From Prorocentrum cordatum (Eukaryota), in contig CAUYUJ010000285.1 of the NCBI GenBank assembly GCA_963575745.1, forward strand, positions 62,001-115,849: a stretch of DNA of 53,849 nucleotides, read 5' to 3'. A model generated the notes under the pieces. That model saw nothing but the letters and a program-made list of their open reading frames with translations, searched no databases and was not told the DNA's origin. The position numbers were made by a program, and so were the translations under genes. Of the stretch, positions 32,296 to 53,645 are shown piece by piece. The number at the start of each line of letters is the position of its first letter. Position 1 is the stretch's first letter.

Positions 32296-32441
32296 CTGCC
32301 GTATCGGGCCAGCCCCAGTGGGCTGCGCATTGGCTGCGCCCCGGGTTGGCTGCTAAGCGCTCGTGCATTGAACGTGGAGACGTTTCGGACCCAGGCGTGT
32401 CCAGGGGGCAAGGCCCCGCTCCAGGCATGTATTGGCCGTTG

Positions 32442-32515: not shown

Positions 32516-33781
32516 ATGGCTTTCGCGCACCAGGATGTGCTTGCCTTCGTTGCTGGGTTGCCCCAGGGTGCCCTGGGAGGCGCGGCGCAACAGGACATGG
32601 TGGAGTGGTGCTCGTTCCTGCTCGACGTTGATCCGTCGCCGAAGGCGAAGCACGACCTCTTCTGGTACCTGTCCGTCGGGCGCCTGCTGGGGGAGACGAT
32701 GGGCTCCATCTCTCCCCTGGACTTGGCCGAGCCTGCCATGCGGGACGTCATCAGCAGCACGATCAAACACGGCGAGAAGCCGTACGACAAGGATGGTGAG
32801 AGCCCCGTGTTCCGTGCGTGGGCAGTGCAGCCAGCCCAGATCGCCTTCGCACTCCGTGTTCAGAGGAAGTGCGGGGCCACAGAGCCGCCCCCTCCAACTC
32901 CCGAGGCCACCTTGGCTTCCACGATGCGCGAGTACTTGGAGGCCCAGGCGGCCACCCACAAGCGGTCAACCAAGGCGCTTTCTTTTAAGCTGTCTGAGCG
33001 GGTTGCTGAGCTTGGCATGGCCACCTTCCCGGAGGATCTGCTGCCATCGGAAGAGAACTTGGCTGTTTTCGAAGCGGCAGGCCGCGTCGCACGTGACAAA
33101 GGCCGCTTGTACATCGGCAGCGCAGAAGGCGAGGACCTGCAAAGGAACTTTCGCCCTTCATGGTCACGCGTGCCGGCCGTCGAGGTCCCCGGTGGGGACG
33201 GGTCGGTGCCCGACCGCCAGCGGCAGATGGCCGAGCTGAAGCGCGCTCGCGCCGCCACGGAGGTCGACTACCCCGGCTACGCCACTTTCCAGGCCCATTT
33301 GCTTGATTGGGGAGTCAAGCTGATCCTCATGAAAACCGCCACCCCCCAGGACATCCTGGGGTACAGCTTCCTGCTGGCCAAGGTGGCGGAGGAGCACGGC
33401 GGCGCCCGCGCCGCGTACCAGTACGACATCCTGGCGCGGAAAGCGATGGCCAAGGGCCTAGAGAAGGGCGACGCCGACTGGAAAGTGATGTTCTCCAGGA
33501 TCGACCGGGACTTGGCCAAGGAGGCCAGGGGCAAGGTGACGGCCAGGGCTTCTGATGCTGCGAAGTTCGCCCACACCAAGGGCAAGGGCAAGGGGAAAGC
33601 CGACGGCGCCGCTCAGAAGGGCGGTTCCGGTCACGGCTCTGCCGCCAGCTCGGCGGCGCAGTCCCCTGCGCCCAGGTCTCCGTTGGTGCCGCCGCGCTCG
33701 CGCAGCCCGCGCAAGCAGCAGGGCGGCTGGCAGGGCGGCTGGCAGAGCCAGGACCGCGGCGCCAAAGCGTGGAAGAAGTGA
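32516..33781 (+). CDS. gag: Element A gag-like protein (421 aa)
   Basis: Clearly homologous to the ORFs at 44170-45523 and 47370-48713 (AKHDL, IGSAEGEDL, RPSWSR, YATF, AEEHGG.R.AYQYDIL.RKAMA); position upstream of RT. Confidence 0.85.
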   Translation: MAFAHQDVLAFVAGLPQGALGGAAQQDMVEWCSFLLDVDPSPKAKHDLFWYLSVGRLLGETMGSISPLDLAEPAMRDVISSTIKHGEKPYDKDGESPVFRAWAVQPAQIAFALRVQRKCGATEPPPPTPEATLASTMREYLEAQAATHKRSTKALSFKLSERVAELGMATFPEDLLPSEENLAVFEAAGRVARDKGRLYIGSAEGEDLQRNFRPSWSRVPAVEVPGGDGSVPDRQRQMAELKRARAATEVDYPGYATFQAHLLDWGVKLILMKTATPQDILGYSFLLAKVAEEHGGARAAYQYDILARKAMAKGLEKGDADWKVMFSRIDRDLAKEARGKVTARASDAAKFAHTKGKGKGKADGAAQKGGSGHGSAASSAAQSPAPRSPLVPPRSRSPRKQQGGWQGGWQSQDRGAKAWKK

Positions 33782-34516
33782 GCGGCTTTCGTTAGCGGAA
33801 ACAGCAGTGAAGATTCTCGTGCGGCCGCTCTCCTCTGGGATGGTCCTGTGCGCTCGCACGGACCGTTGGGCGACACACAGCGTGCAGCCGGGCAGGGGAG
33901 CACGAGAGACCCCAAGGAGCCCTCGAGACCCAGCCCGGCTAGCACACAAGACACCCCAGGGAGGGCGGGCGGGAAAGCCGGCCGCGCCGGCAAAAGCGAC
34001 GCCCCAGGCGACCAACGCCCGCGGCCCGCAGGAGGGCGCGCCGGCCCGCCAGAGCGTCGCCCCGACGAGGCCGCGCGCGCCCAGGCCACACTGCACAGCC
34101 GTTGGCCTGCAGCGTAGCCACGCGGCCCCCACGGGAGCACTGGCCGATATTTGCTACCCCGCCTCGGGCCCGGGCGGCAAGGGGAGCGGAGACGCCGAAA
34201 GGCAACCGAATCACCGAATCCCCGAATGGGGACAGAAGCGGCCTGTGAGAATCTTCCTCCCCAGAACCAAAGCTTAGGGATGATGAAGATTCTCGTGCGG
34301 CCGCTCTCCTCTGGGATGGTCCTGTGCGCTCGCACGGACCGTTGGGCGACACACAGCGTGCAGCCGGGCAGGGGAGCACGAGAGACCCCAAGGAGCCCTC
34401 GAGACCCAATGCTGGGGCTCTCGGCGACCCGGACCCCAACCCCACTGCTGACGACGAGAGCACAGCAGCACTGATGATGGCACAGACCCGACGATGATTT
34501 TCACAGTCTCCACTGC

Positions 34517-36020
34517 TCACGGCGCGCCGTCGGACGCAGACGAGTCCGAAAACTCCACTGGCCACTCCGCAGCAGTCATGGCGTCTCTGGAGGCGGCAGA
34601 GGCGTAGCCGAACGCAGCGACGCCACGCCAGCCTCCACTGTGGAAGAGCGCCGGCACGCCGCCCGCCGCTAAACACTCGTCCGCCCAGCCTCTGCGGAAG
34701 GCATGTGTACCCCACTCGGCCGCGCGCTCGAAGCCGAGCGCCAGCGCCGATGCTTTCAGCGTGGCCAGAGCCGCCCTGTAGGACAGGCCAGGGAAGAGGC
34801 GCCCCCGCCCAGCCCGGCGCTGCAGGACGCACACCCCGCACAGCTGCCGCGACTGGAGAACGCAGATGCACCGCCTCGTCACCACCACTGTCTCTGTGTG
34901 CATCTTGCGCTTGTGCAAGTAGATGCACGCCTTGGGCAAGCCCCCGTCGACCGAGAGCACGACCCTGGAGTGCGACCCGTCGCTCCAGAGGCACCACCTC
35001 CGACGCGAAACGGAGACAGAAATGTCTGGCGACCACGAAGGAATCCGCCACCAGCGGATCCCGGAGCACCTCCCGCACGTGGCCAGCAACGCTGCGGGTG
35101 TCGTGCGCACTGGCCCGCGCTCGAAAGCGGCTCGTGCCGGGCACCGTTTTGGCGGCCCCCCGTGCCAGATTTGAGGTATCTTCCAAACACCCCAGAGGGA
35201 CCCGGACCAACCGCAGGGCCGCCCGGACCTGTGTGCAGTACGTCATCAGCGTGTTGCCGTTCTGCACTGCGAAAGGGCCCTTGGCTACCTGGCCCCAAAG
35301 CCGCACTGCGGACGCATACTTGTAAGCACTCCGATGCCACCCGCAGAGCTCTCGTCTCAAAAGCTCCTGCGTCGCTGCAAACTCAGACATATTGCCCACC
35401 AGTTGCAAAGCACGCTCTCTCGGGTTGCCCCCTGCGCCTCCGTGACGCCGAGCCCATGCCACTTGGAGCTCTTCAGGCGTAACGCGGCCCAGCGTTTGCA
35501 CTGCGTCGGCCAAGTCCTTGGGCTCCAGGAACGTCCTCCGAAAGCGAGCTGCGGCCAGGAAGCCAAGAGCAGCAAGGGCAGCTTCAGCTTCGCCCCCTTC
35601 TGGCCCTGCGGGCGTGGCGCTTTCCACCAAAGGCGATGCGACCTCACCGCTCGGGCCGCCGCTGCCCTGGGAGTGCCCTGCCGGCGGCGCCACAGGAGAG
35701 CGCTTCCCGGAAGGGAAAATGGCCAAGAATTCACTGGCCAGCTCTCGAAGGCACGGCCAGACGTCCCGAAGTTCCTGCACACTCATGTCGTTGAAGTCAT
35801 CTCCAACCACGGCCCCGCCACTGGCGAGAGCGCGCAACACATTGTCAGGCGATGCCGGGTGGTAACGCGGCGGCGTGCGCCGAATCACCCCTGTAAACCA
35901 CTGTGCAAGAGCAGGCGGCACCACATCATGGGAGCATGCTTCTTCTGGCGGCTCAGGGTCCGAAGCGCCATCGCCCAAAGCCCACCGCGCGCGTTTGCGG
36001 TTGATGAACTCAAGTGCCAT
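34517..36020 (-). CDS. Element B tyrosine recombinase, one frameshift near 34975
   Basis: Starts MALEFINRKRARW; FCLRFASE (R), WGTHAFRRG (HxxR), GGWRG, FGYA (Y). Confidence 0.85.
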
Positions 36021-36042
36021 GTTGGGCCAAGCTGACTACGGA
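36021..36042 (-). promoter_or_regulatory. Dinoflagellate spliced-leader-like 22-mer abutting the B YR ATG
   Basis: tccgtagtcagcttggcccaac vs DCCGTAGCCATTTTGGCTCAAG, 17/22. Confidence 0.7.
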
Positions 36043-36136
36043 TGACTGCGTGGGAGGCCGTGCGCCGGAGTACGCGGCAAGAAACGCTGACGAATCAACA
36101 ACTGCACTTTTTTCCTTCCTCGCGAATGCATGCCCG

Positions 36137-37440
36137 TCACCGCCTGTGCTGCCAGAAATCCACTGCCGGCCAAGCCCACTCGAGGCGAGCGAAGCCGCGA
36201 GAGACCAGCTGTGCCAACTCCGATGCCTTCTGCTCTGGACGAGTTGGCCAGTCTGCCAAATTTAAATGTGAAGGCACGCGGAATGCACTTAAAAAGTGGC
36301 CACGGTCTGCTGCAGCAAACCACACGCCAGCCACCATAGCATTCCAGTCACGCTGGCGGGAGCACCCGCGGAGCAGCGTCCCGAGTGCGACTGTCGAGTC
36401 GATGAAAATCACAACGTCGAGCCCCGCTGCGCCTTCGGGCAGACTGAAAAACTGCCAGAGTGCACACACTGCAGCTACTAGTTCCCAGGTGTGGATTTGC
36501 TGCTGACGCGGGCAGGCCCACCTCGCAAGCCAGCCCGGCACTGGCGCTGAAGCGAAAAACTTACGCCCGGCCAGCACTGCCACCCAAGCCAGCACGCCTG
36601 CTCCCGAGGCGTCAGTGTACACCACCAAACGTGGCTTCACCGATGGCGACAGCGGGACGGCCCTGCTTGGCTGCGAATTGAGGAAACGCTGCCACCACAG
36701 GAGCGCAAAGCGCAAACGCTTGGAGATGCGAGTGCTTCTCCCGGCTGAATGCCGGAAGAGCGGCGCCAGATAGACGCGCGCGCCCTTCCCGAAGACTGCT
36801 GTGGCCCCCCAGCTGAGCCGGCCGGCCAACTTCTGCGCGCGCGCTGGCGTTAAACGCTGGTCCCGGAGCACCTCTGCGATTTCCGCCAGCCACTTGGCGC
36901 ACTTGTCGCTGGGCACGACAAAATTTAAACACTCTGTGGTTGCGTCCACGGACACACGAACGCCCAGCGCAACAAAACTCAACGCTGCCGTAACTGCTTT
37001 ATGTGAATCAAGACGCCAGCCCAGCAAGTCCTGGATGACGAATCTAGCTAAAGAGGCGGCGCCTACGGCGCTATCACCCCATTCGTGCGCTTGCTCTGCA
37101 TCAATGCCGAAAAAATCGTCCACGAAACGTGGATACACGATGCTAAACAAACGCAAAAGTATGGCTTGAAAAGCCGCGCCCACGCGCTGCCAGGCATGGA
37201 CACTCGCCTTCCCCCCAAATGGACAGCAGAACAGCTGCAGGAACTGATCCTGCGAGACGGACTCCGCCGTCACAGCGGCCGCAAACGGGAGGTGCTCACT
37301 ATGCAGCGGGAGAGTTTTGTAGGCCTCGCAGACGTCATCCTTGCGGAAGCGGACGTCCGCTGCGCTGGCTCCACCAGCGACGAGGCACTGCGCCGCCGCC
37401 ACTAAATCATCGAGAGTTTCGTGGGCGACGCGTTCGGAGA
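36137..37440 (-). pseudogene. pol: Element B 5'-truncated RT-RNase H
   Basis: HETLD, RKDDVCEAYKTLP, CPFG, RFVDD, YTDASG, TWEL, FIDS, RVPSHLNLADWPTR; fused directly to repeat A1. Confidence 0.88.
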
Positions 37441-37722
37441 CCCAGGCGACCAACGCCCGCGGCCCGCAGGAGGGCGCGCCGGCCCGCCAGAGCGTCGCCC
37501 CGACGAGGCCGCGCGCGCCCAGGCCACACTGCACAGCCGTTGGCCTGCAGCGTAGCCACGCGGCCCCCACGGGAGCACTGGCCGATATTTGCTACCCCGC
37601 CTCGGGCCCGGGCGGCAAGGGGAGCGGAGACGCCGAAAGGCAACCGAATCACCGAATCCCCGGATGGGGACAGAAGCGGCCTGTGAGAATCTTCCTCCCC
37701 AGAACCAAAGCTTAGGGATGAT

Positions 37723-39501
37723 GCTGCCAGCGATGATTCGGCCACTTTTGTCGCCGGCGGTGCTGTTGGTGCGTCTCCGCTCCGTTCTGCCCCGCGGGGG
37801 GAGGTGGAGCTTCCTTTTCAGTTTGCATGCCTCGATTGTCCTCGTGTCGCTGCGGCGCGGAGGGCTGTGCATAGCTTCCTGGACGATCCTGCAGTGCGTG
37901 ATTGCACGCCGCTCGATCATTTGAACTGGGCTCTGGGTCTTCCGTCCTGTGACGAGCTTCCCGAGATCCCTGCAGCTGTGGCAGACTCGCTTTGCCAGGT
38001 GCTTGCCTTCGACGGGCATGCGTTGGCCGAGTCCCGCGCTGCGAGCCTCGAGTACTGGCGGCAGCGCAAGCGCGTGCTGGACCCACTGTGGGCGGGCAAA
38101 TTCGCGGGATTGCCTGCGCACGTCCGCAGCGTTCTTGGTCCGAAGAAAAATTTGCTTGTTCTGTCGGAGATGCTCGAGGCGATCAGCTGGCCCGACGACC
38201 GGCTGGTGCGCGACCTGCAGTGTGGTTTCCCTCTGATCGGCGAAATTCCGCGCAGCGGGGTTCTGCCATGCATCTCTTTCTCTGCTCCCGCTGAAAATGC
38301 GGTTTCTTTGCGCGCACAGGCGCCAGTTTTGAACTCTGTCACGCGTCGCCGTGTGAGGCGGCCTCGGGCTGTGGAGCAGTCCGTTCGCGATGCGTTTGAG
38401 CAGAAATACATCGAAGAGGCCAGCGATGGCCACGCAAGGTGGCGCCCGTTGCGTGACACATGCGTGCTCACAGCCAGGTTTCCAGCCGACGAGGGCTGGA
38501 GAGGGGATTCACGGAAGGTGCGCTGCGTCGACGATTTCACGGCATCCCGTGTGAATGCGGCTGTGTCAGTGGGTGAAGCCATCCAGCACGACACGCTGGA
38601 CCATTTCGTTGCCGTGGCGTGCAAGGTTGTCCGCGCGGGCGCTGGCGGAGCCGCGCTTCGCAAGGAGGATTTCGTAGGTGCGTTCAAGACCCTTCCCCTC
38701 GCGAGCTCCCACCTGCAATTTGCGGTGGTGACGTGGGGTTCGGCGGAGGCCCGCGGACTGGGCCTGCAGCTTCTCGCTTGTCCCTTCGGCGCTGTCGCGT
38801 CCGTGTACAAGTGGGAACGCTTTGGCGCGGCCGTCCGGGCAATTTTGGCCAAGCAGTTCCATGTTGTTTTCCTCCGGTTCGTGGACGACCTTTTTGGGCT
38901 GGACGGAACCCTCGAGGGCGCGCCGCACTTGGCAGCGCCAGCTGGGGCCAGCGCAGTTGCCGCAGAGGTGATATCTGAATTGCTAGGGTGGGAGCTCGAC
39001 GCTTCCAAGCGCGTTTCGGCGTCAGCAGCGGCTCCGATCCTTGGAGTTGACTGCGCGGTCGAGCGCGAGGCCTGCGCTGTGCGATTGTCGGTTGGCCCTG
39101 ATAAGCTCTCGCGATGGAAGCGCCAGATTCAGGACATTCTTGCGCGGCAGGCGATTTCCCCAGCAGAAGCCAAGAAGTTGGCCGGCAAACTCAGTTGGGG
39201 AACCTCAGCGGTTTTCGGCCGAGCAGCGCGCGTGCATTTGGCACCCCTGTTCCGCCACTCTACCGGGGAGTCTGGGCGTTGGACCGGGCGCCTGGAGCGG
39301 GCGCTTCAGTGGTGGCTGCGTTTTCTAGACTGCGTGCCGCAACGGCGCGTATTTAGCTTGCAGCCCACAGCCAGGACCAAGTGCATAGTTTACTCTGACG
39401 CCACTGGCGGTGGTGACCTCGCCTGGGTGGTTTGTGCGCCCAACGCGCGCGTCTGGTCCTCGGCACGAGTTTCCGGTGCTGTCTGGCGCTGGGTTTGCTA
39501 T
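37723..39501 (+). pseudogene. pol: Element A pol (RT + partial RNase H), disrupted by insertions B and C; first codons at 33782-33808
   Basis: KVRCVDDF, KEDFVGAFKTLPL, CPFGAVASV, RFVDD, KLAGKLSW, YSDATG. Confidence 0.88.
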
Positions 39502-39842
39502 GAAAACACTACCGACGACCTCCGCGGGAGCAGTGGGACGCGACAGACCCCGCTGCCTGACTGGGAGACTCTGGGACAAGTCCAAATCCCCAGTCAGGCG
39601 ATCGCCGAAAACCGAACCACCACCACCAGGGCGGGTGGGCGGGAAAAACCGAACACCGAGCAGCCGGCACCAAGAAGACCGCCCCCAGCGGCCCACCGAG
39701 GGAGCGCGCCGCCAGTGACCAACACCGCGGGCACCATGGCCGCGAGCACACGGCCACCGAGCCCCCGAAAGGGAACTGCGGCGCCACCGCCCCCAAGGGC
39801 AAAGACGACGACGACGCCGACGACAGACAGACAGACAGACAG

Positions 39843-39910
<68 letters not shown>

Positions 39911-40319
39911 CGGCCCAGAGAGACCGACGGACAACCGCGACCTCACCGAGGCCCCCAGGCGCGTGAGAAGCAACACCGCCGACGGGAAGCGCCGCCAGGC
40001 ACCACCAGCTCCACCAGGAGCACCCACTTTGGGATAAGGCGAGTGAGCAAAGAAGCGGAGGAGTACATAGACAACTCCGGCCGCTCGTTGTTTTCTCGCG
40101 CTGAAAACGCTACGCGTTTTCGCGCGGAGAAAACACTACCGACGACCTCCGCGGGAGCAGTGGGACGCGACAGACCCCGCTGCCTGACTGGGAGACTCTG
40201 GGACAAGCCCAAATCCCCGCTGCACCCAGACCTCCCAGGCGGAAGCTGACCACGCGTTGCCTGTGAAGCAAGAGAGAATCTTTTTGGAACCACAGCCAGG
40301 CCCAATGCACCAAGAAAGT

Positions 40320-41871
40320 TCACTCGCCGTCTGACGAGCTCGAATGCTCGACCAAAAATTCAGCTGCCTGCAGGGCCCCACGTGCCCGGGCACTGGCGTA
40401 CGCAAAGGCAGTCAACCCACGCCAGCCTCCACTGTAGAAGAGGGCAGTCGGACCTCCTGCTTTGAGAGCATCCGAAGCCCAACCACGCCTGAAAGCATGC
40501 GTGCCCCACGCCTGCGGGGACCTCAGATTGCACGCGGCCGCTGCTAGTTTTAAGAAAGCCAGCGACTCGGAATAAGATATGTGTTGGAACGGTGGCTCTT
40601 TGGCCTCGACAACAGGCACTAAGGCGCACACGCCGCACAAAGACGGCCCCTGCGTCCCGCATATGCAGCCCCTGACCACTTCAACTGGCTCCTTGTAACA
40701 TTTCCGCCGCAGAAATGTTACGATCACCTGCTTCTTGCCCTTGGCCTCCTTGATTCTAAGTGGGGCCAGGCTCGTACCAATAATCAAGGTTTCACTATAG
40801 CGCAAGGTGAAGTGGCGCGACACAACCCACGACCGAGCCACGTCCGGCCTGGATGCCGTCTCGGAAGCCCACTTTGCCAGGGCGCGCGTGTCTCCTGGCG
40901 AAGCCCTCAACTTCACGGCGAGTCGCCGGATCCGTGGCCTTCTCAGCGCCCCGAATCAAGCGGGAAGTGTCCGCCAAAGGACCTGGTGAACTTTTCAACC
41001 AAGCCAACACTGTTCGAAGACGAGACACATACTGCGCCAACGAAGCTCCGCTCCGAAAGAGAGACACGAAGCAATCCAAGATGCACTCCTGAGGGGGCCA
41101 AGGCTCCACGCGCACCGTAGCCGCTGCCTGTCCCCACAAAACCACAGCAGGCGCATAACCCAAGGCACTTTTTCGCCAGCCTTGAAACTCAATCCAGCAT
41201 GCCCGCTCCGCGAAGACGGCGGCGGGAGCGGGGCTTCGTTGAGCTTCGCGAGCTTCAGCTGTTGGCGCCTGGCCAGGCATGTCCACGGGCGGCTCTGGCA
41301 CTTTGTGGAGCACGCGTATGGCGTGTGCCAGTACCGGCGGCGGGGGGACACAAACCGATTGCCTTGCAGCCACTACCAGTCGCAATGCTGCGAGCGCTTG
41401 CGCCATTTCTTCGGCTGACGCCGAGGCTGGCGCAGCTGGACCCGCCAATGAACGCTCACGGCTGTGAGGCTGGCGGTCCGTCTGCGATTCCTGCACCGCT
41501 GGCTGCTGCATCCCCCTATCCGCTCGACCACAGAACAACAGAAAAACCTTGACGATGGCAACGTCCAGCTGGCCCAGAGCAGGCCAAACCTCCTGCGCCT
41601 CGAAAGCGTCCAACGAGCCAAAATCACTGAAGGAAGTCGCGCCGTCGCGTTGCAGACTTGCTGCAATGCCGTCCGCGTCATGGACGTCCTGCTTCGCGGC
41701 GCCACCGGCCCTCTGAAGCACGCTCGCCAATTCACCGCGCCAGCGATCCGCAGGATGGCCAGGACGTGGAAGGGAAGCGCCAGGCGGCAGTGCTGGCTCG
41801 CTGGCCTCAGGAAGCCCCTCTCGTAAGCGCTGCCATCGCGCCCGCTCTGCGTTGACAAAACTCAACGCCAT
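40320..41871 (-). CDS. Element C tyrosine recombinase, frameshift near 40915
   Basis: Starts MALSFVNAERARW; GWRKSA..Y, FTLRYSE, WGTHAFRRG, GGWRG, FAYA. Confidence 0.85.
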
Positions 41872-41896
41872 GTGCCGGCCTGCAACCCGCAATCTG

Positions 41897-41916
41897 TTTG
41901 AGCCGAAGGCTACGGA
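41897..41916 (-). promoter_or_regulatory. SL-like motif 25 nt upstream of the C YR ATG
   Basis: tccgtagcc--ttcggctcaaa, 18/22 with a 2-nt gap. Confidence 0.72.
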
Positions 41917-42014
41917 AGACAAAGCAGAAGTGCCAGGCAGAAGCCGCACGTGGAAAACTGAGTGCGCCTGCGCTGCGCATATTTTCCTTCCGCGGACACC
42001 CAGCCATTGCCGCC

Positions 42015-44169
42015 TTAGCTGTCCCAGGGGAGCGCTGGCCAACGCCAAGCCGTCTCCCGGAAAGACAAGCTGTCTAGTTCAGCGCGGCTCTGCTCTGCTT
42101 TACTTACGCGAGTAGGCCCATCTGCCAGATTCAACGCAGAGGGGACATAATGAGCGTGCATAAGCACACTTGCTGCAGCTAGATCGAACCAGATGGTGCC
42201 CAAAACTGCGTTGAGGTCAGGCTGCCGGGAACTGCCACGCAAAAGTGCGCTCAACGCCGCTGTGTTGTCGATAAACACAATGAGCTCTGGTGACTCGACT
42301 CCTTGCTCCAAGAAAAGCCGCACGCCGCACAATGCTGCCACTAATTCCCAGAGGGTCACCTGCGTGCGCCTGGGCCGAGCCCAAGCCCAAGCTCTAGACG
42401 GAATCTTTGCTGCCGCCCAGACACGCTTTGACAGAGTTTGAAGCACTACAGCCAAGTTCCCTCCGCCAGTGGCGTCAGTGTACAGGATGCACCTCTGGAG
42501 CGGAGGTTGGCTGAACCGCACGAAAACGGAAGGGTCAGAACTTAAAAACCGTTCCCACCACTGCAGAGCATTGCGCACGCGAGCTGCCAGCGTACGTTTC
42601 CGTTGGCTGCTCTGCCAGAAGAGCGGTGCCAGAAAAACTCTCGCACCGCGGCCAAAAACCGCTGTGGTCCCCCAGCTAAGGCGACCAGCAAGTTTAGCAG
42701 CCTCTGCTGGCGCCAACGCGTCACTACGCAAAGCATCACGAATTTGCTGGAGCCACTTATTTTTCTTCTCGCACCCAATCCAAAACCAAATGCCCTCCAG
42801 GCAGGCCTTCGCCTCTACGCCTAACACGGTCATTTGTGTCGCCTCAGCAACTGCTTTGGATTCATCTAGCAGCCAGCCAAGCAAGTCCACGATCACTGTG
42901 CGCGCCAACCCCGCCGACCCTCGCGGACCCACCAAAGATCCGGGATCCGCGGTGCTCGCGCACGCGTCTGCGCCGAACAAATCGTCGACGAAACGCGGAT
43001 AAGCAAGCAGAAATATACGGGCCAAAATTGCTTGCACCGCGCTACCGAATCGATGCCACGCAAACACAGAAGCCGCCGCGCCAAAAGGACAAGAGAGCAA
43101 CTGTAATCCCTTGTCCTGCTGCGCAGCACTACTCCACGTGGCAACTGAAAACCGGAGATGGTTCTCCTGCACAGGAAGCGTCTTGAACGCACTCTTAAAA
43201 TCATCCTTGCGGAAGAGCAGAGGCGAACCCCCCTCTGCAGCGTCAAAACAAGCCCGGGCCACACCAACAAGTGCATCGAGCGTGTCGTGACGCATTTCCT
43301 CTGGAATGCAAGTGGCAGAATTGAGACCGTTGCCACTGAAATCGTCGATCAGACGTACTTTCCTACTCCTCTGCCCGGCACGTTCCCGCCAACCTTCGTC
43401 GACAGGGAAGCGGACTGCAAGCAAAGCATCTACGGCGGAAAGCTAAACCCAAAAAGCTTTCCTCTGCGCAACCTCTTCTTTGCATTTGTTCTCAAACGCC
43501 TCCTCTACCGCGGGGCACAGCGACGTGCGGGCCCACACCTTGCACAAAGTGTCGGCGTTGATAGCGCCCACCGAAGATTCCAGCGCACTTACGGCCACTG
43601 GTTCGGACACGTGCCGCTTCGGAGGCATTATACCGGAAGGATTCAACCTACCTACGATCGGAAACCCGAAAGCTAAGTTATGTACAAGCTCTTTATCTGG
43701 CCACGCGATGCTCTCGAGCATCTCCGCGAGAAGCAGCAGATTCTTCCCCGGCCCTACCAGCTGCTGCACGTGCAGCGGTAATCCCTGCAGAATTTGCTCC
43801 CAGGGGACAGCCAGGTCACGTTTCCGCCCCTGCCAGTACTCTAAAGCGTCAGCGCGCCATCTATGCAAAGCCCCCGGGCTGAGAGCCGAGGATTTTTGAA
43901 TTGCATCCTGCAGCAAAGGGGGGCAAGCAGCCCTCACGCGCGACGCGCGGCAAAGACTGCGCCCATTTAAAATGCACCACAGGTGTCATAGCAGACCGGG
44001 CGTCCCGATCCTGTAGCAGAGCATGCACGGCCGAACGGATCTCGACAAGAAAACCCTTTCCACCACTACCTGGAAACTCGATTGTTTCCTCTGTACCCTG
44101 AGAAGAGCTCCCGTCAGAAACCTCGCTCAGTTGTTCCTCCACGTCTGTGTCGGGGAATCGTCCTTCCCC
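42015..44169 (-). pseudogene. pol: Element C pol (RT + RNase H), frameshifts near 43920 and 43440
   Basis: ORF pieces 43861-44142, 43443-43937 and 42015-43424 are collinear with D pol; KVRLIDDF, RKDDFKSAFKTLP, RFVDD, YTDATG, FIDN, YVPSALNLADGPTR. Confidence 0.88.
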
Positions 44170-45523
44170 TCACTTGTTCCACCACTTGTCCTGCCAGGAC
44201 TTGTTGCCCTGGTTGTTGCCATGGCCGCCCTTGCCTCCCTTGCCGTTGGAGTTGCCGCCGTTGCCAGAGCGCTTTGGCGACCTGGACCTCTTCTTCTTGG
44301 GGGTGCTCGGCGCGGGCCCAGCCCCTTTGTGCGCCTTGCCCTGGCCCTTCGGCGCCGCCCCGCTGGAGCTGGCATTGCCCAAGCCTCCGTAACCAGAGCT
44401 GCTGCCACCGTAGGTCCGGGAGCCTCCGCCGTGCTGCGCCGGTGGTCGCCCGGCCGGTGGTCTCCTTCATCTTCTGAGATACTTTATCTTTGGCCTTCCG
44501 GGCCATGTCCTCGTCGAGCACGTTGAAGTAGTGCGAAAGCCGGTTCTCGCCTCGCTCGAGCGAGCGCGCCATCGCCTTACGCTGCAAGATGTCGTATTGA
44601 TAAGCCGTCCGGACCCCGCCGTGTTCCTCAGCTATGTGGGTCAGATTGAACAGGTAAGCCAGAAGCTCCGTGGACGAGCACGCTCTCATCAGCACGCACT
44701 TCATCCCCCACTGGAACACGTGACCCATGAACGTAGCGTAGCTCTGATAATCAAGCTTCAACTCGTCCGCTCGGGCTTTCTTGTCGTCGAGCACATGCCT
44801 CAGCTTCTCCTCGATAGATGAACCAGTCGGTGGCGCAGCCACGACAGGCGTGCGCGACCATTCCGGTCGGTGGTGCGTCTGCGGACACTCACCGTCCGCG
44901 CTGCCGATCCACTTGCGCTGCTTCTCGGCGGCCACTTTGCCAGCATGCTCGAATTTGGCCAAGGTTTCTTCTGAAGGGAGCCCATCCGACGGGAATTGCG
45001 CCAAACCCATTTCTTGGATCCGCTTGGCCAAATCGAAAGACAAACCCTTCTTTGCAGAGCCCGCCGCGGCCGTGTGAGACGTCGCCTGGACGAACTGCTG
45101 CATGGCATTGGCGAACACCGAGACCCCTGCAGCATCCGAATCCGAAGCCATCTTCATCTTGGACTGAAACCTACCCTGCGCACGCAGAGCCAGCGACAGC
45201 ATAGCAGGCGTCAAAACAAATTCTTTCCAACCCTCAGGGCCGGAAGAGGCGAACGGCTTGTCGTGGAGCACCAAGCCAGTCTTGAGGGAGTCGCGGATGA
45301 AGTCGTCTGCGTAATCCTCCATCTGGACGCCCTGCACGACCTCTGCCATGGCACGCGCCGTGCCAGTGTAAAAGCGAAGGTCATGTTTAGCCTTGGCGTT
45401 TTCGTCTACAGAGCAGACGAACTTGGCGAACTCCAAAATATCTTCTGTGGAAGCGCCTGCGAATGCTCCCTGCGGGAGGCCGGCGAGGTCCGAGCTGATC
45501 TCATCTGCTGAGAACGAAGCCAT
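44170..45523 (-). CDS. gag: Element C gag-like protein, frameshift near 44440
   Basis: Homologous to the A and D gags; the true C-terminus (RSRSP...WQDKWWNK) is in the 44170-44382 frame. Confidence 0.82.
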
Positions 45524-45602
45524 GACGCAGCAGTACAGGACAGGAGCCTGCAGGTGATCTGCAACGCAGCTGCTGCACAGTAGCACTTGAGTGTGTGATT
45601 TG

Positions 45603-45624
45603 CCTGAGCCAACACAGCCACGGT
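45603..45624 (-). promoter_or_regulatory. SL-like motif 79 nt upstream of the C gag ATG
   Basis: accgtggctgtgttggctcagg, 17/22. Confidence 0.65.
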
Positions 45625-46549
45625 GCTGCATGCTTGCGCGCATAACAACAATGACTGGCTGCAACGGATCATGACCGATACTGCTGTTGCACCGGGACAT
45701 GGGCGCACGCAACGTTGCAGCCCCAGAGAGCCCGCACCTGCGTCCCGCAACCAGTTCTTCGAACGCGCCCAGCTGTCACCGACGGCGCGCCAGCGGCTAG
45801 AGCCACACCCAGCAAGAAGGAGGGAAAGAAGAGAGTCCTCCGCTCCGCTCCGCCTCCGACGGCACCAACTCGCACAGTGACGCTGCTGCGCATCCCGGCG
45901 ACCCCCCTTTGACGTTAATCGCGGCCAGGGGGGCCACTCGGGTCACCCTTGCGCGAAACCATGCAAGCTACAGCGGTGCCACGCCAATCCCAGTCGAACC
46001 CCTTTGACCGCCGAGCGGCCAGGGGAGCCACATGGGTCTCCCTGCACCCCCCCCTCCGCCAGGCCAGGTCAGAGCAAGGAGAGAGGAATTTTGAGCGTAA
46101 CGAGGCCTGTTTTGGCCAAGTAACCTCACGCGAGAGGGCTTCCGCTCATCCCACGCTACTTCGGCTGACCATCGTCGGACATTTTTCATGATTCATAAAC
46201 TCGTTTATGCTGCAGGAAAACCGTGAGGAGCAGCCCCACGTGTGTTTGCCTCCACTCCTCAATTCCTGCACGCTCAATGCCTGCGCAGCGGGCTGGTGTC
46301 GGCGGCCGGCGGTTTCTGCGCGAAGCGGCGGAAGTATGCTCACCTTGCTCTGTTCGTGTGTACTCTGGTGCGGTCTCGCATGGCGGTTCGCCCGCGCTGC
46401 TCGGGTCTCGTCTGCTGGGCCGATCGTGTCTCGCAGTTCTTCTGTCGCTGCTCCCGTGCGCTGGCTCCTTGAAGCCAGATCGAGAATGCTCGCTGATACG
46501 AGCAGCGGCAAAACAAAACTCGCCGACAGCGGCTGCACAAACAAGACAG

Positions 46550-47010
46550 GCTCCCTGATAGGAGCGGCGCGTCCGAAGCTCCCTGAAAGGAGCTGCGCCT
46601 GCGTGCTCCCTGATAGGAGCCAGCGGCGCCTAGCGCTCCCTGAAAGGAGCTGCGCCTGCGTTCTCCCCGACAGGAGCGGCGCCCTAAAGCTCCCTTGCGC
46701 GTGTTCCCTGACAGGAGCAGCGGCCGAAAACTCCTTGACGGGAGCGGCGCCTCGAAGCTCCCTGATAGGAGCGGCGCTTCAAAGCTCCCTGACAGGAGCG
46801 GCCCCCCCAGAACAGAAGTTCGCCGAAGGGGGCGGCGCCCCATGCTCCCTGAAAGGAGCTGCGCCTGTGCGCTCCTCGACAGGAGCGCTGCCCACCAGAG
46901 CTCCTTCCTGTGCTCCCTGACAGGAGCAGCACCCCCAGGCTCCCTGAAAGGAGCTACGCTTGCGTGCTCCCAGACAGGAGCGGCCCCCCCAAAGCTCTAT
47001 AGCAGGAGTC
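46550..47010 (+). repeat. Array of ~15 palindromic units gctcc-ctgaNa-ggagc (period ~27 bp) in D repeat A1; shorter copy at ~53025-53290
   Basis: Counted directly. Confidence 0.85.
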
Positions 47011-47264
47011 GCGCCTGCGCGCCTCCTGGGGCGGTTCCGTGGCGCTGCGCCGGCGCGCCCCCCAGCAACAGCCTGGCGGCTGTCTGCCAACTTTCTGAGC
47101 GCCGGGCGTCCGAGTGCCCAGAATTACATTCTGTGCTCGTTTCTGCGCTCTGGTGCCAGGCGCGACTTGGCGACCATTTGGGCCTCGCGAGTGTTGTGCT
47201 TCGCACAATTGGGGTTTTCATATTCAGTCGGAAGGACTGCCATTGCTGGAGAGTTTGGTCATTA

Positions 47265-47286
47265 CCTGTCGCTTTTTAGGCTCAAG
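47265..47286 (+). promoter_or_regulatory. SL-like motif 83 nt upstream of the D gag ATG
   Basis: cctgtcgctttttaggctcaag, 16/22. Confidence 0.6.
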
Positions 47287-47369
47287 TGAACCACTCCTGC
47301 TGGGATTGAACCCTTCTTCGCACTGCAGCGTGCTCCACAGGTGTAAGTTGCAACCCAGCCGTGCCCACC

Positions 47370-48713
47370 ATGGCTTTCTCTTCCGGCGACGTCTCTGCCA
47401 TGATTGCCACTGCGCCGAGCGGGGCCTTTAACAAGGCCAACGCTGACCAGATCCGCGATTGGGTCGACTTCGTGCTGAATGTCGAGCCCAACGCGGCGGA
47501 GAAACACGAGTTGTTCTACTACGTGTCGGTGGCTCGCCTCTTGGCGGAAACGATCGGCAGCACCTCGCTCTCGGATTTCGAGGATCCACACATGCGCGAG
47601 ATGATTAAGGCAGCGATTGTTGTGAACGATTTGCCGTACGCCGCAGAGCAGGATCCAGCATGGAAAGCCTGGAAGGTTTCGCCAGCACAGGTCGTCTTCG
47701 CACTCAAGGTGCAGACCAAGTGCGCCCAAGCTGCACCACCCGCCCGCTCGGCTCCAGAAGCCGGCGCTGGGTCGAGCGACGTGGCAGGAATGGCCGAAGC
47801 TGTGAAACAGCTTGCAGAACTACAGACCCAGGCGCTCCAGAAGGGCAAGCCGAAGGGACTCAGCTTCAAGCTTCAAGACAGGATCGTTGAAGTGGGCTTG
47901 CAGAATTTCGATAAAGACACCCTCCCGTCCGAGGAAATCTTGGCGAAGTTCGAGGCCGGAGCCAAGATCGCCAACGACAAGGGCCGGGCTTGGATCGGCT
48001 CTGCAGAAGGCGAAGATCTCCGCGATCATCACCGCCCAGCATGGAGTCGCACCCCTCTCGTCGACGCGGTCGTGGGCGACGGCTCCCACGAGGATCGCGT
48101 GAGACAGAGTGCGGCCGCCAAGCGCGGAAGCGCTTGGATCGATAAGATCGATTACGTGAGCTTCGCGACCTTCATGGGGCATCTCCACGAGTGGGGTTTC
48201 AAGGTGATCCTCACGAAGGCGTGCAGCATGGCGGACTTTTTCTCCTACGTGCATATTATGATCCGCATCGCTGAGGAGAACGGCGGGGTCAGGACGGCGT
48301 TTCAATACGACGTCCTCCAGCGGAGGGCCATGGCCAAAGCGCTGGAGAGGGACGAAACCGATTTGAGCAGGTACCTTACAAGGATCGATGTTGATCTCCT
48401 GCGCACGGCCAAAGACAAGGTGGATAAGCGCTTCGCGGAGCTCGCTCGTGCATCTGGCGCGCCCAAGGGTCAGTCCAAGGGCCAGCCCAAGGGCGCCTCC
48501 AAGAGCTACGGCGACGGGGGCAGTCATGCCTCCAGCAGCGCATCCTCTGGCGGCAAGGGCGGCAAGAGCGCTAAGGGCGACAACCGGCGCGTCCGTTCGC
48601 CGCCCGCGCGGCACAAGGGCAGCGCTGGTGGCGGCCAGCAGCATCGGTCGCGCAGCCCGCGCGCTGGATGGCAGCAGTCGGGCCAGTGGGACAAGCAGTC
48701 CTGGAGCAAGTGA
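47370..48713 (+). CDS. gag: Element D gag-like protein (447 aa)
   Basis: Intact ORF homologous to the A and C gags. Confidence 0.87.
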   Translation: MAFSSGDVSAMIATAPSGAFNKANADQIRDWVDFVLNVEPNAAEKHELFYYVSVARLLAETIGSTSLSDFEDPHMREMIKAAIVVNDLPYAAEQDPAWKAWKVSPAQVVFALKVQTKCAQAAPPARSAPEAGAGSSDVAGMAEAVKQLAELQTQALQKGKPKGLSFKLQDRIVEVGLQNFDKDTLPSEEILAKFEAGAKIANDKGRAWIGSAEGEDLRDHHRPAWSRTPLVDAVVGDGSHEDRVRQSAAAKRGSAWIDKIDYVSFATFMGHLHEWGFKVILTKACSMADFFSYVHIMIRIAEENGGVRTAFQYDVLQRRAMAKALERDETDLSRYLTRIDVDLLRTAKDKVDKRFAELARASGAPKGQSKGQPKGASKSYGDGGSHASSSASSGGKGGKSAKGDNRRVRSPPARHKGSAGGGQQHRSRSPRAGWQQSGQWDKQSWSK

Positions 48714-50833
48714 GCGGTCACGCCGCTCGCTGACAGTGCCGACGGTCAGCAGTCGGAAAGCGAGTCAGGGGACGATGAGCCCATGGAGCGCTCTTCGGCT
48801 CGTCCCAGCGCTGCTTTTAAGCATTCTAAAGCTGGGCTGTCGCATGTCGGTGCGCGTGTACATAGCTTTCTCGCTCGCGATGATTTGCATCGCCTAGATC
48901 CATGGGATCACTTGGAGTGGGCGTCGGCCTTGCCTGTTTGCGCAGAAGTTCCTCTTTTGCCGCACTTTTTGGAAAAAGGCTGCGACCGCGTGACAAGATT
49001 GACCCCTGCAGAATTGCACTCGGCTCGTAAATCAGCGCTCGCTTACTGGTCGGAGAGGAAGCGAGTGACGGAGCCCTGCTGGCAACGCGCGTTCGCGCAG
49101 CTGCCAGCGCACTGCCAAGGTGTGTTAGGGCCCCGGAAAAATCTTTTTCTCCTTAGCGAGATGCTTGAGTCCATCAGCTGGCCAGACGCCACGCTGATTA
49201 GCAATTTAATGCACGGTTTTCCTCTTGTCGGCTTGCTCCCAGCGAGTGGGATGCGCGTTCCGACAGGGAACGCAGCGCCGGAGGTAACCAAAGCTGCTCT
49301 ATTGGCCACTGCGAGCGTTCAGAACAGACGCATTTTGCGGCGATCGTCTTTGCCACTCGGGATGGACAGATCTGTCTGCGAAGTTTTTGCTTCTGCATGC
49401 GACCGGGAGGTCGCGGACGGCAAGGCTAGAATGCGTCCGTTGAACATAGAAACTTGTGTTTTAACCCCGAGATTCCCAATCGTGCAAGGTTGGAAGACCG
49501 TAGGCTGGGAAACGTTTCCCAAAGTTAGATGCATCGATGATTTTTCTGCGTCGCGCATCAATGAAGGCACGCAAGTATCCGAGAAGATGCTTCCCGAAAC
49601 GCTAGACTCACTTGTAGCGCTGGTGTTGAAGCTCACAAAATCAAGAACAATGCGCATTCGTTGGCGCAAAGATGATTTTGTGCAAGCCTTCAAGACACTA
49701 CCAATATGCAGCTCTCACCTTCCATTGGCAGTTGTCGTGTGGCAGGAGGCGTTGGCTAAAGACCAGTGTCTCCAGCTCCTGGCAATGCCCTTTGGCTCTT
49801 CCGCCTCCGTGTCCGCCTGGGAGCGGTTCGGTTTGGCAATTCAGGGCGTGCTTGCGCAGATTTTCCTAGTGCTGTACCTTCGCTTCGTCGACGATCTGTT
49901 TTCGGGCGACGCGATGGAAGAGCAAATAGATGTTGGCGGAGACCCTCTGACGGGCCCTGCTGGCACTGCCAAGCTGGCCAGGTACGTAATTTCAGATCTT
50001 CTCGGCTGGGATTTGGATGCCGCCAAGGCTGTCACAGAACAGCCATCGGCCACCATTCTCGGCGTCGGCGTTCGTTTTGATGACGCCCGGCAAGAGATAG
50101 TTTTTGACGTGGGTCCGGAGAAGCTCGAGTTGTGGAGCTCCCAAATCGTCAGGGCCCTCAAAGCGGGCGCGTTGCCGCCGGCAGAAGCGCAGAAGCTGGC
50201 CTTGCGTTTGAGTTGGGGTGCCAGCTCAGTTTTTGGCAAGGGGGCGCGTGCTCCGCTGGCAACTTTGTTCTTTCATGGCGCAGGCCGCACCAGCCGTCTC
50301 ACTGCGAGGACGAGGCTCGCGCTCATATGGTGGCGTAAGTTTTTGCAATCGCCACCCTCGCGGCGTGTACCGCTGCAACTCCGCGAGCGCCAGCGGTGCA
50401 TTTTGTACAGCGACGCAACCGGCACTGGCATGATGGCGTGGGTGCTGCACGCTCCTTTCGCCAAAGTCTGGGCCGCCACCAGGGTGCCCGACAGCGCTCG
50501 CCAATGGGCACACTGGCGAAAGAACCAAATCGGCACCTGGGAGCTGATGGCAGCGATCTGCGCATTGAAATGGATTTTAAGCATTGGCCAAGCAGATCTC
50601 GAGATCATCTGCTTCGTCGATAACAAAAGCGCATTGGGTGCGCTTGTGCGAGGTTGCTCGCGGAAGTCCGATTGGAATTGTCTGATTGGCAATCTGTGGC
50701 TTCTCGTCGCCGACAAGGCGCAGATGCCCCCACACGGCCGTCTGAGAAGGCAGAGCAAATTGCCGAGCTGCAGGCGCGAAATTTTCAACGCGTTGAGTGG
50801 CTGTTTCCGCCGGATGCACCCTGGGGCGGCTGA
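48714..50833 (+). CDS. pol: Element D pol (RT + RNase H), in frame with gag after TGA; small deletion/frameshift near 50722
   Basis: KVRCIDDF, RKDDFVQAFKTLP, MPFGSSAS, RFVDD, YSDATG, TWEL, FVDN. The VPSxxNLA segment is missing; DAPTR...PWGG* resumes in another frame. Confidence 0.88.
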
Positions 50834-52431: not shown

Positions 52432-53510
52432 CTGTGGCATCGTGTGCGTGGGGTTGTAAAACCAATAGGAACAGGAAGCGGTCCTCACGATGTACCCCTG
52501 CCAGGCGCTGCCGCGCGGTCCGTCGCCTTCTGGTGCATTGGGAGCCCAAGGGCGGTATCCCAGAAGGCTCCTGCCAGCCAGGCAGCGCCGTTCACACGCC
52601 CTATGCTGGCGCAAGGACGCCGGCCATTCTACAGTGGGCCTGGCTACCGCAATGGTTTTCATGATTCATAAACTCGTTTATGCTGCAGGAAAACCGTGAG
52701 GAGCAGCCCCACGTGTGTTTGCCTCCACTCCTCAATTCCTGCACGCTCAATGCCTGCGCAGCGGGCTGCGGTGTCGGCGGCCGGCGGTTTCTGCGCGAAG
52801 CGGCGGAAGTATGCTCACCTTGCTCTGTTCGTGTGTACTCTGGTGCGGTCTCGCATGGCGGTTCGCCCGCGCTGCTCGGGTCTCGTCTGCTGGGCCGATC
52901 GTGTCTCGCAGTTCTTCTGTTGCTGCTCCCGTGCGCTGGCTCCTTGAAGCCAGATCGAGAATGCTCGCTGATACGAGCAGCGGCAAAACAAAACTCGCTG
53001 ACAGCGGCTGCACAAACAAGACAGGCTCCCTGATAGGAGCGGCGCGTTCGAAGCTCCCTGAAAGGAGCTGCGCCTGCGTGCTCCCTGATAGGAGCCAGCG
53101 GCGCCTAGCGCTCCCTGAAAGGAGCTGCGCCTGAAAGGAGCTGCGCCTGTGCGCTCCTCGACAGGAGCGCTGCCCACCAGAGCTCCTTCCTGTGCTCCCT
53201 GACAGGAGCAGCACCCCCAGGCTCCCTGAAAGGAGCTACGCTTGTGTGCTCCCAGACAGGAGCGGCCCCCCCAAAGCTCTATAGCAGGAGTCGCGCCTGC
53301 GTGCCTCCTGGGGCGGTTCCGTGGCGCTGCGCCGGCGCGCCCGCGAGCCCACATGGCGCGCGCTTCCCGCCTCGCGGCAAAAGCCACCATGTGGCCGAAA
53401 ATGCGGAGCAGCGTGCCCTGCCAGGTTGCTAGCAGCCAAACCCTAGGGAAAGGCGAAGCGCCGAACAGTTTGCCGAAGGGCAGGGACTGCTTGCAGCTAC
53501 CGCTGCGAAC

Positions 53511-53645
53511 AGGGGTCATCGGCATTGCCCTTGCCAGGTTGCCTCGCCCAAGCCGTGCACAGGGGTCCTCGGCATTGCCCATGTCAGGTTGCCTCGCCCA
53601 TGGCTGAAATGAGAATCATCGGCATTGCCCATGTCAGGTTGCCTC
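53511..53645. repeat. Three ~50-bp tandem units in the C 5' region
   Basis: tcggcattgccc.tg.caggttgcctc three times. Confidence 0.8.

What the first reader, a model, noticed from the sequence alone, without database searches (positions are those of the whole stretch)
33770..48785. Conserved in-frame TGA between gag and pol with a 3' stem-loop: probable stop-codon readthrough
Seen: A ends tgg aag aag TGA gcg (33779-81), C ends tgg aac aag TGA ggg (44172-70) and D ends tgg agc aag TGA gcg (48711-13). In each, the same frame continues without stops through an acidic/Ser linker into pol; for A this holds after removing B. A and C have no nearby pol ATG. Hairpins follow the stop: C ggggaa-ggacga-ttcccc; D gagcgg-tcacg-ccgctc then gctgac...gtcagc; A a weaker gcggc...gctgc stem. 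Known: gammaretroviruses make Gag-Pol by readthrough aided by 3' structure, whereas DIRS-order ORFs are usually overlapping or separate. Inference: programmed UGA readthrough or recoding in a YR retrotransposon family.
Basis: partly seen in the sequence, partly recalled or inferred. Interest (0 to 1): 0.78.

Follow-up and report, generated by a model that had tools for sequence, protein, structure and literature searches.

The report
Leaky gag stop in dinoflagellate retrotransposons
Three jumping genes in a dinoflagellate genome have their coat gene and enzyme gene in one reading frame split by a single TGA stop, so ribosomes likely read through that stop now and then to make the enzymes, a strategy known from retroviruses, while the proposed RNA hairpin signal is not kept across relatives.

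Summary
The in-frame TGA is real in A, C and D, which are nested Ngaro-like tyrosine-recombinase retrotransposons of a Prorocentrum cordatum-type dinoflagellate. A is in frame once B is removed at its repeat-defined junction. C's two frameshifts are absent from contigs of other runs, while its TGA stays. All 4 metagenome loci found (3 lineages) also have TGA: L001 is directly in frame, L003/L004 and L002 after predicted introns are removed. Linkers differ in length but are all multiples of three, stop-free, and protein-conserved upstream of the only semi-conserved Met; A has no pol ATG for 158 codons. None of the top 150 Gag homologues is fused to Pol, and 19 of 31 complete ones end in Trp or Lys. 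A Gag-Pol fusion by UGA readthrough is the best reading (about 0.62), but it is inferred: no RNA or peptide data. The hairpin claim is weaker. It is significant only in C and D, overlaps the stop, and does not match the gammaretrovirus layout. TGA identity alone is weak evidence, as dinoflagellates favour TGA. I found no report for DIRS-order elements in print; this scan noted similar junctions in two other genomes.

The parts
32516..33781 (+). Element A: gag-like ORF1, ATG to TGA, basic/Trp-rich tail ending WKK
   Evidence: 42% identical to D gag
33779..33781 (+). A gag stop TGA, context AAG TGA GCG
33782..33809 (+). A linker, 5' part; continues in frame at 37724
   Evidence: shared TG core at 33808-09, 34284-85 and 37722-23
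33808..37723 (-). Element B: internally deleted YR retrotransposon (part of A1, 3' part of pol, YR, B1, A2, B2) inserted 26 nt after A's stop, into the 5' arm of A's distal stem
   Evidence: 37441-37723 = 34003-34285 (283 nt), 34284-34408 = 33808-33932 (125 nt)
37724..39492 (+). A linker 3' part and pol (RT, start of RNase H); one in-frame ATG only, at codon 159 after the stop; cut off by element C
39502..40218 (-). Element C 3' repeats: B1 40218-40129, A2, B2 39591-39502
   Evidence: 90 nt, 99% identical
40320..41871 (-). C tyrosine recombinase ORF with its own ATG (MALSFVN); one frameshift in this copy
42015..44169 (-). C acidic/Ser linker and pol; in-frame ATG at 43989-87; copy-specific 1-nt gain near 43920
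44152..44169 (-). C hairpin GGGGAA/TTCCCC starting at the first base after the stop
   Evidence: 30-nt window z -4.2; 60-nt window z -2.4
44170..44172 (-). C gag stop TGA, context AAG TGA GGG
   Evidence: kept in a variant that differs at 12 of 140 letters
44170..45523 (-). C gag-like ORF1; copy-specific 5-nt loss near 44437
46183..47066 (+). Element D 5' direct repeat (A1), matching 52656-53348
47370..48713 (+). D gag-like ORF1, intact, ending WSK
48711..48713 (+). D gag stop TGA, context AAG TGA GCG
   Evidence: unchanged in the three contigs of three runs that span it
48710..48750 (+). D hairpin 1 enclosing the stop (48710-48730) and hairpin 2 (48729-48750); the two overlap slightly
   Evidence: (z -3.3 for hairpin 1, -1.4 to -2.4 for hairpin 2)
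48714..50833 (+). D linker and pol (RT with FVDD, RNase H); in-frame ATG at codon 24; frameshift near 50720 in this copy; no methyltransferase domain after RNase H
50926..52431 (+). D tyrosine recombinase ORF from the conserved ATG (MLSFVN), with HAFRRG and the GGW...Y motif
52656..53348 (+). D 3' direct repeat (A2); a B2 copy was not found before the window ends

Best explanation
These Ngaro-like retrotransposons carry gag and pol in one frame split by a single TGA, and they likely make Pol as a minor Gag-Pol fusion when a ribosome occasionally decodes that UGA as an amino acid instead of stopping. Most ribosomes would stop and release Gag with its basic, Trp-rich tail; a few would continue through an acidic Ser-rich linker into RT and RNase H, which sets a high Gag to Pol ratio and tethers the enzyme to Gag. 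The recombinase is separate and has its own conserved ATG. Shown: the layout, its spread over the family, the coding signature of the linker. Inferred: suppression of the stop, the inserted residue (Trp is the usual guess, recalled), the ratio. The cis signal is unresolved. The shared part is the immediate context (Lys or Trp codon, TGA, then G or C); RNA structure varies by lineage and at most helps in some.
For: TGA with pol in frame 0 in 3 of 3 window junctions and 4 of 4 metagenome loci, 3 lineages as L003 and L004 are near-identical. These six lineages fall in four separate well-supported clades of a Gag tree. Stop-to-anchor distances are 213, 186, 186, 195, 291 and 297 nt, all multiples of three; frame 0 holds 0 stops and the other frames 0-7. 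The 22 codons upstream of the semi-conserved Met are conserved as protein in frame 0 (mean pair score 9.5 against -7.4 and -7.8 in the other frames; 0 of 3000 shuffles reach it; 16.8 for the four intron-free lineages alone), and Asp/Glu/Ser make up 28-40% of the first 40 codons in 5 of 6. A has a single ATG in 598 codons, at codon 159. Contigs of other runs lack C's frameshifts but keep the TGA; D's TGA is unchanged in three spanning contigs. None of the top 150 of 273 Gag homologues is longer than 577 aa or has a Pol match, so the stop is family-wide. The last Gag residue is Trp in 10 and Lys in 9 of 31 representatives, against 17% for both together in the tail (p 4e-8), and Trp and Lys alternate on the tree.
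Against: No expression data. A Met sits two residues before the PxDHxxW motif in 4 of 6 lineages, and D has an ATG at codon 24. The base after the stop is G in the three window copies and L001, not the leaky C. No conserved stimulatory structure at a working distance. Frame 0 in L002, and the stop-free linker in L003/L004, depend on introns that I predicted. The six junctions share ancestry, so their probabilities are not fully independent. In Tca2, a gag-UGA-pol junction did not direct readthrough in a yeast reporter and held a cryptic promoter (PMC2194720 abstract). The Trp/Lys bias could be a protein-level feature of the Gag end.
Confidence: 0.62

Rival explanations
1. Pol is made separately from Gag, from an internal promoter, a spliced-leader trans-spliced RNA or reinitiation, starting at the Met before PxDHxxW or at a non-AUG codon; the shared frame is a relic.
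For: Met at that position in C, L001, L002 and L004 (4 of 6), ATG at codon 24 in D. The YR ORF of the same elements has its own conserved ATG, so internal starts are used. Tca2's junction has promoter activity (PMC2194720 abstract).
Against: A and D lack that Met, and A has no ATG for 158 codons although it is otherwise intact there. Protein conservation extends at least 20 codons upstream of the Met. Near-cognate starts are not at a shared position. A separate start would free the bases next to the stop from frame, yet all six linkers are multiples of three from the TGA itself.
Confidence: 0.15
2. A splice removes the stop. The G before TGA starts an intron (GTGAG or GTGAC), so the unspliced RNA gives Gag and the spliced RNA gives Gag-Pol.
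For: All six DNA junctions read GTGA, four of them GTGAG, which fits the standard donor (consensus recalled). Lys, Trp and Arg, the usual last residues, mostly have G-ending codons. Relatives carry short introns. Phase-compatible AG sites exist in every linker.
Against: An intron's length is free, so six linkers in frame 0 would be a coincidence. The clearest predicted introns of L002 and L004 are mostly preceded by G and followed by G, whereas this donor would be preceded by A. No phase-compatible YAG|G acceptor lies in the linkers of A, C, D, L001 or L004. The acidic composition starts within a few codons of the stop.
Confidence: 0.11
3. RNA editing turns the UGA into a sense codon (for example UGG) in a share of transcripts, guided by the hairpin that encloses the stop.
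For: In D, C and L001 the predicted stem includes the UGA or its flanks, where it could serve an editing enzyme but not a decoding ribosome. About 70,000 putative nuclear editing sites are reported for P. cordatum, not experimentally verified (PMC11453091 passages).
Against: No such hairpin in A, L002 or L004. The stems are short (6-10 bp). No RNA was available to test it.
Confidence: 0.07
4. The TGA is decay or chance, or the host reads UGA as Trp everywhere, so gag-pol is a single ORF.
For: Every window copy has lesions. An Amoebophrya species reads UGA as Trp or stop (PMC11453091 passages).
Against: The stop is at the homologous place in six lineages and survives where other lesions do not. 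Six intact frames of these elements hold 88 TGG and 0 TGA, and TGA ends the pol and YR ORFs. No fused Gag-Pol among 150 homologues.
Confidence: 0.05

Closest known systems
Ngaro retrotransposons, DIRS order (Cafeteria burkhardae types, PMC8547959; fungal Ngaro, PMC3783388; Xenopus, PMC9210276; passages read)
   Same: Split direct repeats A1-ORFs-B1-A2-B2, order gag / RT-RNase H / YR, no methyltransferase, ORF1-deleted derivatives like B.
   Different: Those passages describe three separate or overlapping ORFs and do not mention readthrough; here gag and pol are one frame split by one TGA. RT-based placement inside Ngaro was not tested.
LTR retrotransposons with an in-frame gag stop: Tj1, Tcry1, Tosmo1-3 (bioRxiv 2022.12.06.519325, passages) and Tca2 (PMC2194720, abstract)
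   Same: gag-TGA-pol in one frame with a conserved codon before the stop; read as programmed readthrough that limits Gag-Pol.
   Different: Those are integrase-bearing LTR elements with a protease, context GAA TGA CT; here a YR element without protease, context AAG TGA G or C, with variable structure.
Gammaretrovirus (MoMLV) gag-pol readthrough, type III (PMC13517186, passages)
   Same: One in-frame stop between gag and pol; G after the stop in four of six lineages.
   Different: MoMLV uses UAG, an 8-nt spacer and an H-type pseudoknot from +12. Here the stop is UGA, the clearest stems begin at the stop itself, and no shared structure follows a spacer.
SymbioDIRS-Dnmt3 and other Symbiodinium DIRS elements (PMC5890265, passages)
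   Same: Dinoflagellate YR retrotransposons with A-coding-B-A-B repeats and a divergent RT that fits Pfam poorly.
   Different: A, B, C and D show no DNMT domain; the passages read do not treat how gag and pol are joined.

Membership tests
DIRS order (YR retrotransposons) | RT and RNase H in a pol ORF | tested here: met
   FVDD and RNase H motifs in the sequence; Atlas neighbours include RVT_1 clusters at 0.96; Pfam RVT_1 only below cut-off (E 0.095 for B, 0.0015 for a homologue); no PDB sequence match
DIRS order (YR retrotransposons) | Tyrosine recombinase with His-x-x-Arg and catalytic Tyr, no DDE integrase | tested here: met
   HAFRRG and GGW...Y in B, C, D; Atlas: 19 of 30 hits in Phage_integrase clusters, score 0.97
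DIRS order (YR retrotransposons) | Insertion without target-site duplication, through a short shared core | tested here: met
   B shares only the 2-nt core TG with its target; not tested for A, C, D
Ngaro superfamily | Split direct repeats A1-ORFs-B1-A2-B2 | tested here: met
   Full pattern in B; B1/B2 and a partial A match in C; only A1/A2 in D; A's ends lie under insertions or outside the window
Ngaro superfamily | Order gag, RT-RNase H, YR on one strand; no methyltransferase after RNase H | tested here: met
   pol ends shortly after RNase H in B and D; no DAM hit in Pfam
Ngaro superfamily | RT-RNase H groups with reference Ngaro rather than PAT or DIRS1 in a tree | not tested
   No reference sequences were fetched; hence 'Ngaro-like'
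Gammaretrovirus-type (type III) readthrough signal | UAG-G, 8-nt spacer, pseudoknot from +12 | tested here: not met
   Stop is UGA; stems start at the stop in C, D, L001; windows from +9 to +20 give z near 0 in C, L001, L002; pseudoknots were not modelled
Type II readthrough signal (UGA CUA or UGA CGG) | C directly after UGA, hexamer UGACUA or UGACGG | tested here: not met
   G follows the stop in A, C, D, L001; L002 has UGA CCC and L003/L004 UGA CAA CUG, close to the type I CAAUUA
Programmed stop-codon readthrough (general) | Conserved in-frame stop with an open, conserved frame behind it and no shared start | tested here: met
   the Met in 4 of 6 lineages is a partial exception
Programmed stop-codon readthrough (general) | Fusion protein or ribosome passage through the stop | not testable with these tools
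   No ribosome or proteomic data in reach

The most novel reading that the evidence does not exclude
Dinoflagellate YR retrotransposons recode the gag UGA with a signal unlike the three known types: a selected Lys or Trp codon before the stop plus a hairpin that encloses the stop itself, acting before the ribosome arrives or as a target for an RNA edit. This would be the first recoding signal for DIRS-order elements and a first handle on programmed stop suppression in core dinoflagellates.
Probability: 0.15. Interest if true: 0.8.

Novelty: new variant of a known kind. Interest (0 to 1): 0.52.

Why it matters
How DIRS-order elements make their reverse transcriptase and balance it against Gag is not addressed in the papers I read. 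A family-wide gag-UGA-pol junction would show that they reached the same solution as gammaretroviruses and a few LTR elements, without the same RNA signal. It also gives short, testable cassettes from an organism group that ends most genes with TGA and in which programmed readthrough is little studied, and it explains why gene callers annotate these Gag and Pol proteins as unrelated orphans. The strategy itself is known, so the gain is in range and in the signal, not a new principle.

Tried and rejected
No whole genome is held for this window, so copies in the host genome could not be tabulated. Scans of viral contigs and prokaryote genomes found no relatives; the one metagenome scan gave 4 loci from 486 pattern matches. 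No RNA holder listed. No contig joint skipped the stop, but these were DNA or unlabelled contigs, so this says nothing about splicing. Searches for fused Gag-Pol: one search gave 4 proteins, none a Gag-Pol fusion (one is a gene model joining gag to the YR frame); one search gave none, weak evidence by the tool's own note. AlphaFold model of D pol had mean pLDDT 40; not used and no fold search run. Rfam on 32000-53849: 2 matches far below threshold, none at a junction. A DNA alignment of the six junctions was too poor for covariation counts. By eye, D and L001 share a GAGC-x-G stem with one double-sided change, and a C variant keeps its stem by one G-C to G-U change; too few for a test. Codon effects of contig variants in the linkers were mixed, synonymous and not, with no stop or indel, and were not informative. 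A whole-linker similarity test was only marginal (30.3 against a null maximum of 30.9); the anchored test replaced it. The A-pol codon count was out of frame and was redone. Hairpin z-scores come from 20 windows per lineage, so best values are selected. Selenocysteine recoding was considered; no SECIS-like Rfam match, not pursued.
Full report
What was checked. In D the gag frame of 467 codons is followed directly by a pol frame of 712 codons. Gag homologues up to 98% identical are named Prorocentrum cordatum in NCBI, so the host is that dinoflagellate or a close relative. No whole genome is held.

Anatomy. The region is a nest of four related tyrosine-recombinase retrotransposons, about 40-48% identical in Gag and Pol. 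B (33808-37723, minus strand) has the pattern A1-body-B1-A2-B2 and lacks gag and the start of pol. Its two ends and its internal repeat junction share only the dinucleotide TG, which fixes the empty site as 33809 joined to 37724. That join, set by the repeats and not by the frame, gives A a stop-free frame of 598 codons after its TGA with one ATG, at codon 159, inside a conserved pol block. A is cut at about 39500 by C. C has B1 and B2 repeats, and its A repeat matches the window's last 162 bases, which suggests D lies inside C's 5' region. Pol carries FVDD and RNase H motifs and ends without a methyltransferase; the third ORF has HAFRRG, GGW...Y and its own conserved ATG. Pfam sees these proteins only below its cut-offs; the Atlas places them next to RVT_1 and Phage_integrase clusters. 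This fits Ngaro as described in PMC8547959, PMC3783388, PMC3266345 and PMC9210276 (passages). I did not test the RT tree, so I call them Ngaro-like.

Is the stop inherited or decay? C is damaged: a 5-nt loss near 44437 and a 1-nt gain near 43920. Contigs from 3 of 4 laid runs lack each lesion, and no letter differs at 44170-72. Two contigs of one run bridge the site, one of them a variant differing at 12 of 140 letters; two more cover it near their ends. For D, three contigs from three runs span the stop, and all their listed differences lie elsewhere. One run may be the source of the window. The single metagenome scan gave 4 loci. L001 reads AAG TGA GCT and continues in frame through an acidic linker into the first pol block. 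L003 and L004, near-identical, read AAG TGA CAA CTG and stay in frame for 74 codons to a predicted 54-nt intron that holds a stop. L002 reads CAG TGA CCC GCG CAG and is in frame once a predicted 73-nt intron is removed. These loci have many other short introns of the same AG|G style in conserved regions, but the linker introns are my predictions. On a Gag tree of 28 rows the six lineages fall in four separate clades: A; D; C with L001; L002 with L004. Among proteins, 273 cluster representatives match the Gag profile; the best 150 are at most 577 aa and none matches the Pol profile. So Gag ends at this place across the family.

Is the linker translated? Distances from the stop to the PxDHxxW anchor are 213, 186, 186, 195, 291 and 297 nt; frame 0 has no stop in any, the other frames have 0-7, and shuffles give a stop-free frame with probability 0.03-0.23 each. 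A Met lies two residues before the anchor in C, L001, L002 and L004, which is the main point against fusion. But A has Cys and D has Leu there, and the 22 codons upstream are conserved as protein in frame 0 (mean pair score 9.5; other frames -7.4 and -7.8; 0 of 3000 shuffles; 16.8 for the four lineages that need no intron model). Asp, Glu and Ser make up 28-40% of the first 40 codons in 5 of 6 lineages against 0-20% in other frames. Near-cognate starts share no position. Translation therefore seems to enter pol from upstream of any shared start, in the frame of gag.

What is not evidence. TGA is 73-80% of stops in four Alexandrium species (PMC3229502 passages), so six TGAs are expected about 1 time in 5. 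UGA is not a general Trp codon here: six intact frames hold 88 TGG and no TGA.

The context. Of 172 proteins scanned, 48 had the Gag core and a full-length tail; 31 of these are 50%-cluster representatives, a few probably truncated or frameshifted and kept in the count. Their last residue is Trp in 10, Lys in 9 and Arg in 5, against 5%, 12% and 10% in the preceding tail (Trp or Lys p 4e-8; against the last five positions p 3e-6). Trp and Lys alternate between sister rows on the tree. Their stop codons are not known, since only proteins were returned. This suggests selection on the codon before the stop, as in Tj1 and its relatives where that codon is conserved (bioRxiv 2022.12.06.519325 passages), but a protein-level role of the Gag end is not excluded.

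The hairpins. Thirty-base windows starting at the stop fold better than shuffles in C (z -4.2) and D (z -3.3), among the best 1-4% of 40-nt windows in each element; L001 has a 7-bp stem in the same place (z -1.2); A, L002 and L004 have none. A has a strong stem 20-80 nt downstream (z -4.1) and D a moderate second one (z -1.4 to -2.4); C, L001 and L002 have nothing there. About 11-12 nt 3' of the A site lie inside the ribosome, and known stimulators sit behind a spacer of 8 nt or more (PMC13517186 passages). A stem that encloses the stop is thus melted when the stop is read and cannot act as in MoMLV. The gammaretrovirus analogy holds for the layout, not for the signal.

Rivals. Separate pol initiation has the Met in 4 of 6 and the Tca2 precedent (abstract), but does not explain frame 0 from the stop itself or the case of A. 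A splice from the G before TGA fits the GTGAG string, but leaves the multiples of three unexplained and finds no phase-compatible YAG|G acceptor in five of six linkers. Editing fits the stop-enclosing stems and the many putative editing sites reported for P. cordatum (PMC11453091 passages), but three lineages lack such a stem. I put readthrough at 0.62, separate initiation at 0.15, splicing at 0.11, editing at 0.07 and decay or a changed code at 0.05.

Novelty. In-frame gag stops are known from gammaretroviruses and some LTR retrotransposons. For DIRS-order elements, searches for DIRS, tyrosine recombinase, retrotransposon and readthrough (3 papers; passages of one read), the same with read-through and gag (2 papers; passages of one read), Ngaro with gag and stop codon (10 listed) and DIRS1/Ngaro/PAT with frameshift (20 listed) led to no description. 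Four YR-element papers had no occurrence of readthrough or read-through in their main text. I read passages only and opened no supplements; the Poulter and Goodwin reviews and Repbase notes were not seen and may mention it. Earlier notes of this scan report in-frame gag stops in YR elements of two other genomes (UAG in a marine protist, UGA-C in a diatom-like genome) and intron-rich YR elements in this genome; I did not check them.

Verdict. A Gag-Pol fusion across a conserved UGA is the likely design, most simply by readthrough; the stem-loop is not the conserved part. New variant of a known kind, interest 0.52.

Noticed in passing
L002:1288-4556, L004:613-4725 (also L003): These relatives carry many short (about 50-70 nt) GT/GC/GA-AG introns in gag and pol, several at the same protein positions in L002 and L004, which is odd for elements copied through RNA. 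Earlier notes of this scan describe such families.
   Followed up: partly
window 19329-24564 (+): A different RT element with RNase H and C-terminal DNA-methylase-like motifs. Its first ORF ends in three TGA codons overlapping three ATG codons in the -1 frame (about 20445-20459), a stop-start overlap and so another way of joining the first ORF to pol. The ATG frame is not the RT frame in this copy.
   Followed up: no
window about 48625 to about 50985 (protein P0029): An NCBI gene model joins D-type gag (ending HKGSAG) to the YR frame (QPSDVNS), skipping pol. It may be a prediction artefact, but it resembles a gag-to-recombinase splice noted by this scan in another genome.
   Followed up: no
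window 33802-33809 and 37724-37767: B inserted into the 5' arm of the strongest predicted stem of A's junction region.
   Followed up: partly
window 52400-52431, 40320-40345, 34520-34560: The YR proteins of B, C and D end in a short SxSDG motif much like the acidic Ser stretch right after the gag stop.
   Followed up: no
window 31432-32353, 46488-47066, 52963-53650: The 5' regions and direct repeats of A and D hold tandem arrays (about 80-nt units in A, 27-68-nt units in D, 50-nt units near 53500).
   Followed up: no
window 30900-53849: Four members of one family are nested in each other (B in A, C in A, D probably in C), which suggests insertion preference for their own kind.
   Followed up: partly
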